The notes under the pieces: model-generated
Seen by the model: only the letters and a program-made list of their open reading frames with translations
Databases searched by the model: none
What the model was told of the DNA's origin: nothing
Program-made: the position numbers and the translations under genes
In this document: positions 10,101 through 46,100 of the stretch, piece by piece
Layout of the letters: each line of letters opens with the position of its first letter
How positions within the stretch are numbered: position 1 is the first letter of the stretch
Assembly: GCA_964106645.2 (NCBI GenBank)
Contig: OZ067042.1
DNA length: 64,000 nucleotides
DNA from: Podarcis pityusensis
Taxonomy: Eukaryota
Reading direction: 5' to 3' (one strand)

Positions 10101-13100
10101 TCCCATGCAACTGTTAGAAACAAATGTGATGCCACCAGCTGGGAATTGTTGGGGGCCAGGCAGAAAGGGTTTCCCATTGAATTTTAATAAATCTGGGTAC
10201 ATCTGAGGCATTATATATTCCATTGTCAGGATTCACAATGGAATTTCTTCCCATACCAATGAGTCAGAAGAACCTTATCAAGCTCCATAGTTGTTTTGGT
10301 GAGAACTGTTGGAGGAATTCGCATCAAATTTATTGGGTCTTCACCATTTTTAGCTGATGGCATTGGTGGCTCCTCTGTTAGATGTATCTGGCCTGGGAGG
10401 TTTTCCATTCCTTTCCCTCCTCCTTATTAACACTGCTGCTTGGTCTAAAAGAAAAGGCAGAGCAAGCCTAGTCTCTCTCTGTGTGTTTGGAATAGCTGGT
10501 GTTAACCTGTCTCCTATCTTGTTGTACTAACCTTAGTTCAGATATCTCTGGCTGCAACAGCTCTCCTATTTTCAACACATGCATGAGCGAGCGCATGGCT
10601 GATCTCACCCCCTCCCCCACCTTCTCGAACCCTGACTCCGACATCACCGAGCCTGCTGACGAGCAGCACGTGGGGAAGGAGGAGGAGGAGGATGACCTGG
10701 AGGAAGACATCTTTCCGGAGTACCCGCTGTATGATGGCCAGGATCCATTTTACGACCGCTCCCCCCTGTTCAGTTTAGTAGGAAGGTTGGTGAGGTCTTA
10801 GGAGAGCATGCTGGGAAGGAACTAGCTCTTTCGCATAAGAGACCTGCTTTCTGACACTGTTCCCATGTTAAGGCACTCAGGGACAGGTGAGCTCTCTAAC
10901 AAGTTCCAGAAATGAGGGGGCAAAACCAACAAAACAAAAAAGCAAGGGTCTGAGCATACCTAAGGAGGAATCAGATATACTGTGAGAAAACTGGCAGGAA
11001 GACAAATGAGGGGATGGCTTCTGGAGAGGCAATGACTTAGAAGTGAATGTCCAGAACCTGTCTGCAGAGCTAAAGCTTCTGCAATTATGTGCCTTCTCTC
11101 AAGACTGTTTTTTTAAAAAACGTATTTTATACCTATGGTCTCAAAAACAGGAGGATAATCTAGTTTCACTGTCTGCTCCTGTACAGTATGATGTGAGGAG
11201 TGTGCATTTAATGCAGTTCCCTGATAATTCTGATCTAGGAGACATGGAGGGAACTAAGATTTAGCTCTACAATAAAGGAACACTAGGGCGTCATTCCAGA
11301 GAGAAGGATAGTTGATTGGACTAGAATATAGAAACAGGAAATAAATGCTGAAAACATTAAGAAACTAGGCAAACTTTTCTTGTTTGCATTGCTCAGCAAA
11401 TGCTGAAGACTGGCATTTGGGGTATTTAACTTTGACAAAGGATAGAAACTAGGATTTCAGCACACAGGAGCAGTGGGTAGTGAATAAAGTTCTGGGAATG
11501 AATTCCAGAATATGCTTCAAAGTACAGTTGCATTTGTATGGCCACCCAGAGTGAAGCAGCCACCTCAGGCAGCAGGTGCTGAAGGACAGAGCTGTGTATG
11601 CCATGTAGCCTATTCTGGAGGACTCTGTCCCATTACCAGTCTTCAAGTAAGATTCAGCTGAACTGGAGTGGGATGCCATCTTGTCCTTCACCATAATGAT
11701 TTGGGATGACCCTACCAACCAGTGCCATTTGTTGTCCCACCTAGTAAGTGAGTGAAGCTATTTCTGCTACATTACAATTTGGCAGAGAAAAGCACTGGAG
11801 AGAAATTATTCATTGAAAGCAAACATGGCTAGTTCTAATTTCCATATTTGGCAGTGAAAGGCTTCATCCTTGTGCCTTTGGGACTGCAAATTGAGTTTGC
11901 TGTTAAGAAAGATACGATTCTTCATCACACTATTCAATTTTCTCACAATGGCAGAAAAGCAACCACGTTCTGGCAATGGATGCATACTCTGTACAAATGA
12001 GGGGGCAGGATCCTACTGGGGTCCTTGCAATATCCTTGCCTGTTTTGCTCAGGCAGAACCAAATATTCATCATTTTACCTTCAAAGCCCTGCCCTTCACG
12101 GGCCCACATTCATAAACCTGCACCTCAGAAGCTGCTCACTTTATTCTAGGATTAATTTAACTTTGTATGAACATAAGGATCTTTCCTTGATATTTGGGCA
12201 AGAGGTCCTAAGCTTTAGTTTCCTCACTTTTAAGTAGGAGTCAGGAAAATGGGAGCCAGCAAGGGAGGAAAAGGGCCTAGAAAAGGCAGAGAGGGAGATT
12301 GGGGAAGAGTCCTGCAGTCTCAGACCGAAAGAGCTGGCTTCTTCCTTTTTTTCTGGGGGATTTCAGATTTTAAATCAACAAACAGGCCAAACTACCAAAT
12401 AGCTCAATGAGGGAACACCCTCTCCCCCAATCCTGTGAACTGTTCTTGGGGGGTCTTTTGAGTCAGACAAAATTGACTCCCCCCATGCAGCAGCTGTGCC
12501 GTTCACATTTCTCATGAAGTGTGCTTTGATTGGATCTTTGTCTTTGATTTCTTTTTCTTTTTCCTTATTATTATTATTTTTTTAGCTGCTGGCTCTATCT
12601 CCAAAGCTTTAGCAAAATTGGGGGTTATTTCACTTTTGTCTTCCTTTTGAAAGGCTTTTCTTTGGTCTGAGCATGCCATCTTTGCACCTCACCAATCTTG
12701 TGGTTAGTGCCTCTATCCTACTCTATTCTTTTAATGACACACAGCCTCTTTCGGCCTTCCTTTATCAATCCCTCTACCTCTTTGTCTCCTCCCAACGTCC
12801 CTGACTTGACCCCTCTCTCTTCTTACTGCTTCTGCCTCTCCACTTCTCCAGTTCGCCAGTTCCTTCATTCTTCTGGGTTTCAGGCCTGTTTCATAATGGG
12901 CCCTTGTTGGCTGTGACCATAATAGCACTTCAACAGATGTATGCCTCCTGCTTCCTCTTAGCCATCCAATTTCAAAACAAGACATTCCAGGCCTCATATG
13001 AAGAAGATGAAGATTATGCTGAATAAAAGAGAGACTAGATTTGAGAAGGTGATGTTATCTGCATTCTTTCAGAATATCTGCCCATGGGTTTTGAGCATCG

Positions 13101-43100: not shown

Positions 43101-46100
43101 TTACCAAAGGAATGCCATCATAATGGGAAAGGCTACTGAAAGGGGATGAGAGTGACGTTTGGGTGTCTGTATATCCAGGATGGAGAACCATTTTCAGCAT
43201 GAGATCTGTTTTAGCTCATGAGCAGCCTTCTTGGGGCTGCATTCCAGTAGTGGCAGGCAGGGCCAAAGGCAGATGTGGGCGGATCCATGGTTGTGACTTT
43301 TACAATGGGCTACAAAAGCCAGGGGGTTCTATGCACAAACACTGCACAACCATCTCTCCATCCTCCATCCAGGCAAACAAGGAATTGTCATCATTCAAAT
43401 AAACATTCCAGCAAGGCAAAGATACTAGAAGAGGGTGTGTGGCCCGGGGAGAATCCTGAGAATCTGAGGGAGAGGCTTGGGAGGGCCACATTCAGCCCTC
43501 AGGCATGAGAAGCCCCGTTGCTGCTGCATGTCATCAGAGCTTACATCTGCTTTGGTGCTTCCATTATGCAAAGAACTGAACCTCTATTTCGTATGTGGTG
43601 ATCATTCTGGAAACCCTGGCTTCCTCAGTGGGATAGTATATCACAGTACTGATAGACTATCTCAGTTATTGTTCTCAAAAGACAATCTGGGTGTTTTTTT
43701 AATAGGGCCAGCTAAAAGACCACACTTCCCCCTCCCCCAAAAAGGGCTAAACTCAGGTACCTTATGTACCTAATTTCACAAAGCAAGAAGCACAGTAGTT
43801 CTCACATATCAGTAACCAAACAGGAAAAGGCTAGGGTAAGATAGGTCTGGAGATAATTAAATCTCCCTATCATTCAGAGTCACAATACTCCCTATAAATC
43901 AGAGATTGGTGGAATAGTCAGTTTTCTTCTGGAGCTTTGGTGACTGTAGCTGTATGTGGGAAATGAACTTCAAAGAGAATTCACTGAAAGCACTTTTATG
44001 AACATATCAAACTTTTAAGGTCTGCAATGCCAAATGCTTCTGGAGAGATGGAACTGACTGCAGCACTGAGCATCCTCACTCTTTTCTGAACATGCTTGCT
44101 GAAAATTAGTACCTCCTTCCTGTGGAAGGAAAATAGATTGTCTGTGTGCTATGTTTGACTGAAGAGATATGGCCCTGGAGTGCTTTAGACAAAATCTGAA
44201 AATACCCAATTGTTTCAGGGATCAAGAGAAGCTCTCTGTTTTCGTATTGCTTTCCTCATCTTTCCCCCTGACTCTTGCTTCCTTTCCTCTTGCCCACGTT
44301 CACTCTCAGAGGGCATGCTTAAATTACACCCCAAGATAAGTATGGAACAGAGCTTTGGCTTTACCATGGCAATGTAAGCAGAAACATGTGGTGACTTTTC
44401 TGCTAAGCCATAATATTCACAGACAACTTGAAACTTGTTTATTGCCAGTTGTAGATGAGAGAATGCCACCTGCATGCAACTTTCTATCTATTACTGTGTC
44501 CCTCTTTCTTTGTCTTTCTGGCACCCCATCATCTCATGGCTTAAATTTTAACCTTAAAACATACCCCAAATCACCTCTGCTCATATGCAATATTAAAAAC
44601 AACAACCATGAATTCACAGCACAGAAGTTTCCCTTGAGGATTCCCACAGATGCCTTCACTATTGCTGTTCATAATGAGGGGGTGTTTTTGAGCCACAGCA
44701 CTCCAGGATGGCTGCATCCATTCAGCACAAATATGTCTCTCTGTGTGTGCATGTTTGCGTACTGCTGCTGATGCAATTGTCACAGTTTGGTGGTTGATGG
44801 TAGTGTTTATTTTTAACCAACCATCTTGCTGTCTCTTTGCAGGACGTTTTACCAGTTTGAAGCGGCATGGGATAGCTCCATGCACAACTCTTTGCTGCTG
44901 AATCGTGTCACCCCATACAGAGAGAAAATCTACATGACCCTCTCGGCGTACATTGAGGCAAGACCCATCAGTGTCACTTCCTATAAATAGACCACACAGA
45001 GCTGAGTTTTAGAAAGGGGCTTCCACCTTGATTTACTCCAGCCCTCCCTGTCTTAAGCAGTCCCATAATTCCTTGTGATTCTCAAACTAATATGGGGTTT
45101 TGGAAGACACTAGGCTAACATAGCAATACAGGAAGCCCTTACATCAGCATTTGCCAACCTGGTGCTCTCCAGATGTTTTGGCTTACAGTTCACATCAGCC
45201 CCAGCCCAGCATTTTACCCTGAGTGATAAAATCCATTCAGACGTTGTTTGTGTGTGTACATGAAATTTGTTTGGGGGAGCTGGAATGTCTTAATGAATTG
45301 CTCCCATGTATTAGTTGGAAGGTCTTAATGGGGTGCACACCTCCTATGCATGAGTAAGTGCACCATGCAATTTGATTGAGCAGGGTTCAAACTGCACAGG
45401 GTTCCAGGTCATGTAGAATGCCTACATGCACACAGTTACAGCTACATAGATCCCTCTTTCAGAATAATGTATAGAGGTGGGACGACATCAGGAGCAAGGG
45501 CATCATGTGCAGCAGTCCTCCCCTTCCCTCCATGCATTTAAGGTACATATAGAAGAGTGACTAAATGGACCTACAGGGACTTGCTCAAAATCATCCAATG
45601 AGCTTCATGGCTTAACAAGCATTCAAACTCGGTTCTCCCTCATCCAAGTCAATCTGTGGGAAGCAGGGTAGACTCTTAAACTGAAGCTAGCTGCTAGCCA
45701 CTGCTTGTCAAGAGAATAGAAAGGACTGCCAGTGACAGGGGAGAGAGCCTGAGGGACCATTTTTAGTACGCAGTGAGCATCCTTCCTAGCAGAGCACTTC
45801 TTAGCAAATGTCACTGTCTGCTTGTTTCCAAAACTTGTCTTATTTTAATAACACTTGTAGGGAAAACAGCTCCTCGGAGTCTTGTTCTACTTTTTGCAGG
45901 AGTTTACCACCCTGCTCCCAGCAGAAATCTTTTTGCAAGTGGATGCTTGTTTTAAAATATAGTACAGCTCTAAATGTGATGATAAGATGATATATGATTT
46001 CCCATAATTGCTCTTGTGGCAAGTAACATGAAATGCAGCTGCAGTGGGTGGGCTGCAGAGCATCTGGGGGAGGCCCTTAAAACTTCTCTAGGCCATTTTT

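What the first reader, a model, noticed from the sequence alone, without database searches (positions are those of the whole stretch)
10525..44339. A layered microexon / poison-exon splicing programme in the KIF1A stalk region
Seen: the two largest introns (10786-17632, 32567-44842) and two smaller ones contain at least eight short AG...GT modules, most with good pyrimidine tracts. Two match known-type microexons (37421, 42537). Two others preserve frame with no stop (17244, 30488). Several would introduce premature stops (17353, 17513, 27516, 44310). ACTAAC occurs at 10526, 17396 and 37390; TGC sits ~13-20 nt upstream of the AG at 17220 and 42521; TGCATG occurs at 10580 and 37905. Established: UGC near the 3' splice site is the SRRM3/4 microexon enhancer, ACUAAY is bound by QKI and SF1, and UGCAUG by RBFOX. 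Inference: the cargo-binding stalk is tuned combinatorially by neuron-specific peptide inserts, possibly coupled to NMD-based dosage control, and part of this set may be unannotated.
Basis: partly seen in the sequence, partly recalled or inferred. Interest (0 to 1): 0.75.

Follow-up and report, generated by a model that had tools for sequence, protein, structure and literature searches.

The report
Two known KIF1A microexons among decoys
In this lizard's gene for the nerve-cell motor KIF1A, two of eight tiny candidate exons match inserts already catalogued from fish to mammals, while the other six are likely chance look-alikes, though one spot may hide an uncatalogued splice site that would send the message for decay.

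Summary
The window is a lacertid lizard KIF1A gene (32 exons rebuilt, 1279 of 1292 aligned residues identical to Podarcis muralis). All eight AG…GT modules and all cited motifs are where stated.

Two are established microexons: 37421-37447 (27 nt) and 42537-42560 (24 nt). Their peptides occur in annotated isoforms of squamates, turtles, birds, a squirrel and fish, and the same exon chain has junction reads in mouse retina.

The other six lack support. No insert sits at their junctions in 271-272 of 272 isoforms; this tests only the two in-frame ones. Modules this strong are common: 40 in the four introns against 28 by chance. ACTAAC, TGCATG and TGC are at background. A human 24-nt KIF1A exon does not respond to SRRM3/4.

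One lead remains. The last 400 nt of intron 10786-17632 are CpG-rich and hold the strongest cryptic acceptor (17513), and mouse lists a second acceptor 88 nt upstream of the orthologous exon. This may be an NMD-coupled alternative 3' splice site. No lizard reads or orthologous introns were obtained, so it is untested. The scan's notes hold nothing similar.

The parts
9216..9353 (+). KIF1A constitutive exon (138 nt) upstream of the large cassette exon
   Evidence: tblastn and rebuilt model; 138-nt exon in mouse table
10526..10531 (+). ACTAAC; likely branch point of the inner acceptor at 10561 (30 nt); only 6 nt from the outer acceptor, which it may compete with
   Evidence: role inferred
10537..10785 (+). 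249-nt acidic cassette exon (name 'exon 25b' for the human counterpart is recalled), used long (10537), short (10561) or skipped
   Evidence: skipped in 60 of 272 isoforms, 8 residues shorter in 27 of 272; mouse 279/255-nt forms with reads
17233..17632 (+). CpG-rich end of intron 10786-17632 holding three candidate modules
   Evidence: 12 CpG in 400 nt, highest of 27 intron ends (next 6)
17244..17270 (+). candidate 27-nt in-frame module; weak acceptor and donor; unsupported
   Evidence: scores 4.3/2.2; no insert in 271 of 271 readable junctions
17353..17376 (+). candidate 24-nt module with in-frame stop; strong sites; untested
   Evidence: scores 11.4/6.1; acceptor rank 7 of 2181
17513..17526 (+). 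strongest cryptic acceptor of the region, 120 nt upstream of exon 17633; stop after 4 codons whether used as a 14/21-nt cassette or as an alternative 3' splice site; untested
   Evidence: rank 1 of 2181; mouse lists a second acceptor 88 nt upstream of the orthologous exon
17633..17751 (+). KIF1A constitutive exon (119 nt)
27516..27540 (+). candidate frameshifting module (25 nt, or 100 nt to 27615) in a CpG-rich block; untested
30488..30502 (+). candidate 15-nt in-frame module; good acceptor, weak donor; unsupported
   Evidence: scores 10.3/2.0; no insert in 272 of 272
32461..32566 (+). KIF1A constitutive exon (106 nt) upstream of the microexon pair
   Evidence: 106 nt in mouse
37390..37395 (+). 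ACTAAC; likely branch point of the 27-nt microexon (26 nt from the AG)
   Evidence: role inferred
37421..37447 (+). established 27-nt microexon (QFLDSDMP insert) in DUF3694
   Evidence: 90-nt AG-free run upstream
42537..42560 (+). established 24-nt microexon (ISLGNDT insert) in DUF3694
   Evidence: 92-nt AG-free run upstream
44310..44339 (+). candidate 30-nt module with in-frame stop; weak sites but 76-nt AG-free run upstream; untested
   Evidence: scores 4.6/4.1
44843..44957 (+). KIF1A constitutive exon (115 nt) downstream of the microexon pair
   Evidence: 115 nt in mouse

Best explanation
The KIF1A stalk region of this lizard carries three splicing events already annotated across vertebrates (a 249-nt acidic cassette exon with two acceptors, and 27-nt and 24-nt in-frame microexons that add 9 and 8 residues inside the DUF3694 domain), which likely adjust partner or cargo binding in neuron subtypes, while the other six AG...GT modules are likely decoy splice-site pairs without function. 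Shown: coordinates, frame, presence of the inserts in annotated proteins, junction reads in mouse retina, position in DUF3694. Inferred: each microexon is defined by a branch point or UG/pyrimidine tract and a long AG-free run in front of the acceptor; inclusion differs between neuron types (retina data); the inserts lengthen one site of DUF3694 and so change an interaction surface. Which splicing factor drives them is open; SRRM3/4 alone is unlikely to be sufficient for the 24-nt exon.
For: Gene model 1279 of 1292 identical to P0004. Among 272 full-length sauropsid isoforms (3 of 275 stored proteins too short, left out): both inserts 127, 27-nt only 46, 24-nt only 17, neither 78, other 1, unreadable 3 (counts are biased by the query and are not inclusion levels). 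Both inserts in squirrel, blue tit, carp and Notothenia. Mouse retina table: 106-[27]-[24]-115 nt chain, inclusion 0.37-0.61 and 0.20-0.31 in wild type (PMC4991804 supplement). No insert at the junctions of 17244, 27516, 30488 in 271, 271 and 272 readable cases. Module and motif counts near background. AG-free runs of 90 and 92 nt before the two real microexons (0.65% of 1995 intronic AGs reach 90) against 1-35 nt for five of the six others. No KIF1A entry in the supplements of two NMD-splicing surveys. Pfam DUF3694 spans 1268-1432 of P0062, the inserts lie near 1355-1372.
Against: Protein collections cannot show stop-containing exons, so four of the six are not tested by them. The sense strand has about 12 more modules than chance (40 vs 28). 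17513 and 17353 rank 1 and 7 of 2181 acceptors and lie in the most CpG-rich intron end; 17353/17513, 27516 and 30488 fall in 4 of the 11 CpG-rich intronic blocks; 44310 has a 76-nt AG-free run. Mouse lists a second acceptor upstream of the 17633 orthologue. The mouse table was cut when stored, and the two NMD supplements may be incomplete. Splice scores come from a matrix trained on only 31 introns of this window.
Confidence: 0.68

Rival explanations
1. Besides the known events, the end of intron 10786-17632 holds a real, unannotated non-productive switch: the acceptor at 17513 would act as an alternative 3' splice site (or with 17353 as a short poison cassette), adding a stop about 2.4 kb before the last junction and sending part of the KIF1A mRNA to NMD. 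27516 could be a second such exon.
For: Acceptor ranks 1 and 7 of 2181 within 280 nt of the true acceptor; only 2 of 31 introns have a cryptic acceptor of score 10 or more in their last 300 nt. 12 CpG in the last 400 nt against at most 6 in 26 other introns. Mouse retina annotation lists the orthologous exon with a second acceptor 88 nt upstream, a frameshifting length. Consensus ACTAAC at 17396. Stop codons lie far upstream of the last junction.
Against: Mouse extension is 88 nt, lizard 120 nt (the AG at 82 nt scores only 1.3); orthology not shown by sequence, and no read count is given for the mouse acceptor. Acceptors of score 11 or more are as frequent antisense (8) as sense (7). Four AGs lie between 17396 and the 17513 acceptor. 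KIF1A absent from the supplements searched of a human and a mouse NMD survey.
Confidence: 0.24
2. One reading: most of the eight modules are regulated neuron-specific exons under SRRM3/4, QKI and RBFOX control.
For: Two of eight are real; slight excess of modules over chance; motifs are present.
Against: In-frame candidates absent from all readable isoforms, including species with over 20 annotated isoforms; motifs at background; human 24-nt KIF1A exon unresponsive to SRRM3/4.
Confidence: 0.04
3. The CpG-rich blocks at 17316-17625, 27494-27703 and 30442-30551 are constrained or unmethylated for a reason other than exon inclusion (DNA regulatory elements or RNA stems), and their exon-like look drew the first reader to them.
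For: They are among 11 intronic blocks with 4 or more CpG per 100 nt, background 0.61; none overlaps a dispersed repeat in the window self-comparison; stems at 27581-27622 and 30455-30507.
Against: The stems rank only 29 and 86 of 1070 windows; other CpG-rich blocks look like repeat remnants (judged by eye); no chromatin or conservation data.
Confidence: 0.15

Closest known systems
Mouse Kif1a 27-nt and 24-nt cassette exons (chr1:93034545-93034572 and 93026831-93026855; PMC4991804 S3 table rows)
   Same: Same order, same lengths, same flanking exon lengths (106 and 115 nt); both in frame.
   Different: None found at the level tested; inclusion levels in the lizard are unknown.
Human KIF1A microexon HsaEX0034463, a retina-enriched microexon (PMC9303857 supplement rows)
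   Same: Same gene and 24-nt length as 42537-42560.
   Different: Orthology rests on gene and length only. In mouse the 24-nt exon is lower in wild-type than in photoreceptor-less retina while the 27-nt exon is higher, so regulation may differ by species.
KIF1A alternatively spliced exon 25b, mutated in HSAN (PMC8054982 passages)
   Same: Large optional exon in the stalk; the window's 10537-10785 exon is skipped in 60 of 272 isoforms. Equating it with 25b is recalled.
   Different: The inner acceptor 24 nt downstream (10561) is annotated in lizards, snakes and mouse but is not mentioned in the passages read.
NMD-inducing alternative 3' splice site of SYNGAP1 (PMC7347940 passages)
   Same: The unconfirmed 17513 acceptor would work the same way: an upstream acceptor adding a premature stop.
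   Different: SYNGAP1's event was validated with cycloheximide; nothing of the kind is shown for KIF1A here.
SRRM3/4-dependent neural microexons such as the 18-nt Kif1b exon (PMC12626420 supplement row; PMC13174390 passages)
   Same: Short, in-frame, vertebrate-conserved exons in a kinesin-3 gene.
   Different: Different paralogue and exon; the UGC enhancer is missing at 37421, and the human 24-nt KIF1A exon did not respond to SRRM3/4.

Membership tests
Vertebrate-conserved coding microexons (37421, 42537) | Length 3-27 nt, AG/GT ends, frame-preserving, no stop | tested here: met
   27 and 24 nt, phase 2 both ends
Vertebrate-conserved coding microexons (37421, 42537) | Conserved peptide in distant vertebrates | tested here: met
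   squamates, turtles, alligator, birds; squirrel, carp, Notothenia
Vertebrate-conserved coding microexons (37421, 42537) | Junction reads showing alternative inclusion | tested here: met
   mouse retina table; for the lizard only annotated isoforms, no reads
Vertebrate-conserved coding microexons (17244, 30488) | Insert present in annotated isoforms of related species | tested here: not met
   0 of 271 and 0 of 272 readable junctions; 0 of 2 and 0 of 8 in shorter proteins
SRRM3/4-dependent microexons | UGC between pyrimidine tract and acceptor | tested here: inconclusive
   present at -16 for 42537, absent for 37421 apart from the TGCAG itself; 34% of random AGs have it
SRRM3/4-dependent microexons | Inclusion rises on SRRM3/4 expression | tested here: not met
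   human 24-nt KIF1A exon dPSI 0.36, 0.4, 0.66, 0 (4 of 8 experiments have values); no data found for the 27-nt exon
Poison exons / AS-NMD events (17353, 17513, 27516, 44310) | Premature stop or frameshift more than 50 nt upstream of the last junction | tested here: met
   (2478, 1699 and 1332 nt of coding sequence from the host junctions to the last junction)
Poison exons / AS-NMD events (17353, 17513, 27516, 44310) | Junction reads that rise on NMD inhibition | not tested
   no reads obtained; KIF1A absent from supplements searched
Poison exons / AS-NMD events (17353, 17513, 27516, 44310) | Conservation of splice sites and flanks above intron background | tested here: inconclusive
   no orthologous intron DNA obtained; only indirect signs (CpG retention; mouse upstream acceptor)
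QKI / RBFOX target exons | Motif enrichment at a position-specific distance, binding or knock-down response | tested here: not met
   motif counts at background; binding not testable here

The most novel reading that the evidence does not exclude
KIF1A has an amniote-conserved, undescribed non-productive splicing switch right after its exon-25b cassette: an upstream acceptor (17513 in this lizard, 88 nt upstream in mouse), perhaps with a 24-nt poison cassette at 17353 and a frameshifting exon at 27516, diverts part of the mRNA to NMD and sets motor dosage in neurons. It would be a SYNGAP1-type handle for raising KIF1A output with antisense oligonucleotides.
Probability: 0.2. Interest if true: 0.55.

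Novelty: already known. Interest (0 to 1): 0.22.

Why it matters
The real part is ordinary for a neuronal gene and already catalogued: two microexons and one large cassette exon diversify the KIF1A stalk from fish to mammals. Their function is unresolved in the papers read (one cichlid study links an unspecified DUF3694 exon of KIF1A to behavioural laterality; PMC13646608 passages), so they are testable but not new. If the 17513/17353 lead were true and held in humans, it would matter because heterozygous loss-of-function KIF1A variants cause spastic paraplegia (PMC8054982 passages), and blocking a natural non-productive splice site is an established way to raise protein output (PMC7347940 passages).

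Tried and rejected
No whole genome is held for the window. Laying reads gave no data, so use and conservation of the six modules stay open. No structure model was obtained; no solved structure among the 60 best PDB matches of 159 covers the stalk. Rfam: 0 matches in the window. Hairpins over the candidate modules do not stand out: best ranks 29-685 of 1070 intronic 80-nt windows, 25 shuffles each; one of eight hand-picked folds reached z -2.7. A translation start at the Kozak-like ATGs of 17355 or 17517 was rejected: neither is open in the KIF1A frame (and inspection). Truncated isoforms ending at a candidate stop: none among the 120 best of 1372 hits; weak, since such isoforms are rarely annotated as proteins. 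N-terminal extensions before the 17633 exon in P0276, P0282 and P0352 end in pyrimidine-tract-like residues and look like intron read-through by gene predictors; not used. MSI1 UAG motifs are not enriched downstream of either microexon (0 and 3 against 4.0 expected). Literature: KIF1A+microexon 6 papers, KIF1A+alternative splicing+isoform+stalk 16, KIF1A+poison exon 3, KIF1A+SRRM4+exon 6, Kif1a+NMD+cassette exon+brain 1, KIF1A+non-productive+antisense oligonucleotide+splicing 5. No title or abstract start in these listings names a KIF1A poison exon; only PMC10048575 and PMC8378409 were opened (passages, irrelevant). kif1a was absent from the supplements searched of two zebrafish microexon papers. 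PMC10987577 had no readable supplement.
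Full report
Gene and model. A search with the translation of one exon returned sauropsid KIF1A proteins, with Podarcis muralis at 100%. tblastn and manual refinement gave 32 exons from 1115 to 54490, all AG...GT except one GC donor at 44958. The joined frame is open and matches P0004 at 1279 of 1292 aligned positions; 8 of the 13 differences are the 24-nt microexon left out of my model. 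The window is therefore the 3' two-thirds of KIF1A from a lacertid lizard. No genome was held.

Observation. I scored splice sites with a matrix trained on the window's 31 introns, which is a small training set. At the loosest threshold that all eight pass, the four host introns (23,543 nt) contain 40 acceptors followed by a donor within 9-30 nt, against 28.0 +/- 5.3 in 50 local shuffles and 28 on the antisense strand. In-frame, stop-free modules number 14 against 7.5 +/- 2.7 and 10. Eight modules are thus far fewer than chance supplies; the excess of about 12 leaves room for a few real ones, two of which are known. In 34,094 intronic nt, ACTAAC occurs 5 times (Markov expectation 5.7, antisense 6) and TGCATG 17 times (18.9, 18); 34% of 1964 intronic AGs have a TGC at -25..-5 and 22% a TGCATG within 500 nt downstream. 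The motifs carry no evidence.

What is established. I aligned 272 full-length sauropsid isoforms (of 275 stored proteins; 3 short ones left out) to the model. At the 32566/44843 junction 127 carry both inserts, 46 the 27-nt insert only, 17 the 24-nt insert only, 78 neither, 1 another peptide, 3 are unreadable. These counts are biased by the query and are not inclusion levels. Both inserts also occur in a squirrel, a carp and Notothenia, the 27-nt one in Poecilia, Caranx and Larimichthys. In the mouse retina rMATS table of PMC4991804 (supplement rows; main-text passages) Kif1a has a 106-nt exon, 27-nt and 24-nt cassettes and a 115-nt exon, the same lengths as here. The 27-nt exon is higher in wild-type than in photoreceptor-less retina (0.37-0.61 vs 0.24-0.25), the 24-nt exon lower (0.20-0.31 vs 0.40-0.54). 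A human 24-nt KIF1A exon, HsaEX0034463, is listed as retina-enriched (PSI 44 retina, 7.8 neural, 0.75 other) and shows dPSI of 0.36, 0.4, 0.66 and 0 in the 4 of 8 SRRM3/4 experiments with values (PMC9303857, supplement rows from 12 of 18 files; passages). I equate it with 42537 by gene and length only. The exon 10537-10785 is skipped in 60 and 8 residues shorter in 27 of 272 isoforms; mouse shows the same two acceptors 24 nt apart. The shorter form starts at 10561, 30 nt from the branch A of the ACTAAC at 10526, whereas the outer acceptor is only 6 nt away. The ACTAAC at 37390 is 26 nt from the AG of the 27-nt microexon. Both are most simply branch points (inference); QKI binding is not excluded. 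Fifteen lacertid isoforms show 9 combinations of these three events (gene-predictor models, so phasing is uncertain).

How it likely works. Both microexons fall inside Pfam DUF3694 (1268-1432 of P0062) and add 9, 8 or 17 residues at one site. The DUF3694 region of KIF13B contains a binding site for NPHP4 (PMC5290278 passages), and a cichlid study reports an in-frame KIF1A exon in DUF3694 with a predicted conformational effect (PMC13646608 passages; exon not identified). I infer that the inserts tune a partner-binding surface in neuron subtypes; no structure model was obtained. Both microexons have AG-free runs of 90-92 nt upstream, reached by 0.65% of 1995 intronic AGs. The UGC enhancer described for SRRM4 targets (PMC13174390 passages) is present at 42537 and missing at 37421, and the human data argue that SRRM3/4 is not sufficient for the 24-nt exon.

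The six others. The in-frame modules 17244 and 30488 have weak donors (2.2 and 2.0; true donors 4.4-13.0) and appear in 0 of 271 and 0 of 272 readable junctions, although several species have 15-30 annotated isoforms that do capture the two real microexons. They are probably decoys. The four stop- or shift-causing modules cannot be tested with proteins. Five of the six lack a long AG-free run (1-35 nt); 44310 has 76 nt but weak sites. KIF1A is absent from the 8 supplement files of a human non-productive-splicing survey (PMC7347940, passages, search) and from 12 of 13 files of a mouse neuronal AS-NMD study (PMC11188260, abstract and search); neither table could be checked for completeness. None of the 7 Kif1a rows in the held part of the mouse retina table is a cassette in the introns of the six; the file was cut when stored.

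Results against my reading. The acceptor at 17513 is the strongest of 2181 intronic AGs and 17353 is seventh, both within 280 nt of the true acceptor at 17633; only 2 of 31 introns have such a site in their last 300 nt. However, sites scoring 11 or more are as common antisense (8 vs 7). The mouse table lists the orthologous 119-nt exon also with an acceptor 88 nt further upstream, a frameshifting length. The lizard spacing is 120 nt and gives a stop after four codons. If these correspond, 17513 is an NMD-inducing alternative 3' splice site like that of SYNGAP1, not a microexon. Orthology is not shown and no read count is given.

Known and new. The real events are members of known classes and already annotated. 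Six literature searches listed no paper whose title or abstract start names a KIF1A poison exon; the library lacks most subscription journals. The scan's own notes had nothing on related DNA and one unrelated fungal note, not used. Human exon 25b and its disease link come from PMC8054982 passages; that 10537-10785 is its counterpart is recalled.

Verdict. Observation partly confirmed; interpretation partly supported. Two known microexons plus a known three-way cassette exon, with probable decoys around them (0.68). An unannotated NMD-coupled acceptor at 17353-17513 remains possible (about 0.2). Interest 0.22.

Noticed in passing
   Followed up: yes
window 20670-20693: Turtles extend the 20584-20669 exon by an in-frame 8-residue peptide (22 of 272 isoforms); the same 24 nt here end in a stop and lack a GT.
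   Followed up: partly
window intron 20670-21824: Mouse has a 62-nt frameshifting cassette at 1-6% inclusion in the orthologous intron; no 62-nt module scores here, only a 36-nt one at 20781-20816.
   Followed up: partly
window 27494-27703: CpG-rich block with an 8-bp inverted repeat (27581-27588 / 27615-27622) that pairs the 27616 donor; each arm resembles a forkhead binding motif (motif recalled). Fold rank 29 of 1070.
   Followed up: partly
window 30455-30507: An 11-bp stem with CpG on both arms encloses the acceptor and covers the donor of the 30488 module; rank 86 of 1070, not outstanding.
   Followed up: partly
window 44958: GC-AG intron (donor GCAAGA) after the 115-nt exon.
   Followed up: no
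window 42470-42525 and 37398-37415: UG-rich tracts lie upstream of both real microexons; a lead for TDP-43/CELF-type control (recalled), not tested.
   Followed up: no
window 6693-6799, 16035-16141, 17803-17911, 35934-36035, 45154-45212, 54161-54271: Dispersed palindromic repeat family of about 100 nt, MITE-like; also a 108-nt tandem duplication at 38893-39093.
   Followed up: no
window 60001-62000: CpG island-like block (103 CpG, 53% GC) downstream of KIF1A, probably the promoter of a neighbouring gene.
   Followed up: no
protein P0358 (unnamed): A kinesin-3 relative at 65% identity carries a different short insert at the same junction as the two microexons, hinting that the site was already alternative in a paralogue.
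   Followed up: no
window 42537-42560: The 24-nt exon is retina-enriched in the human table but lower in mouse retina with photoreceptors, where the 27-nt exon is the enriched one; species difference or non-orthology, unresolved.
   Followed up: partly
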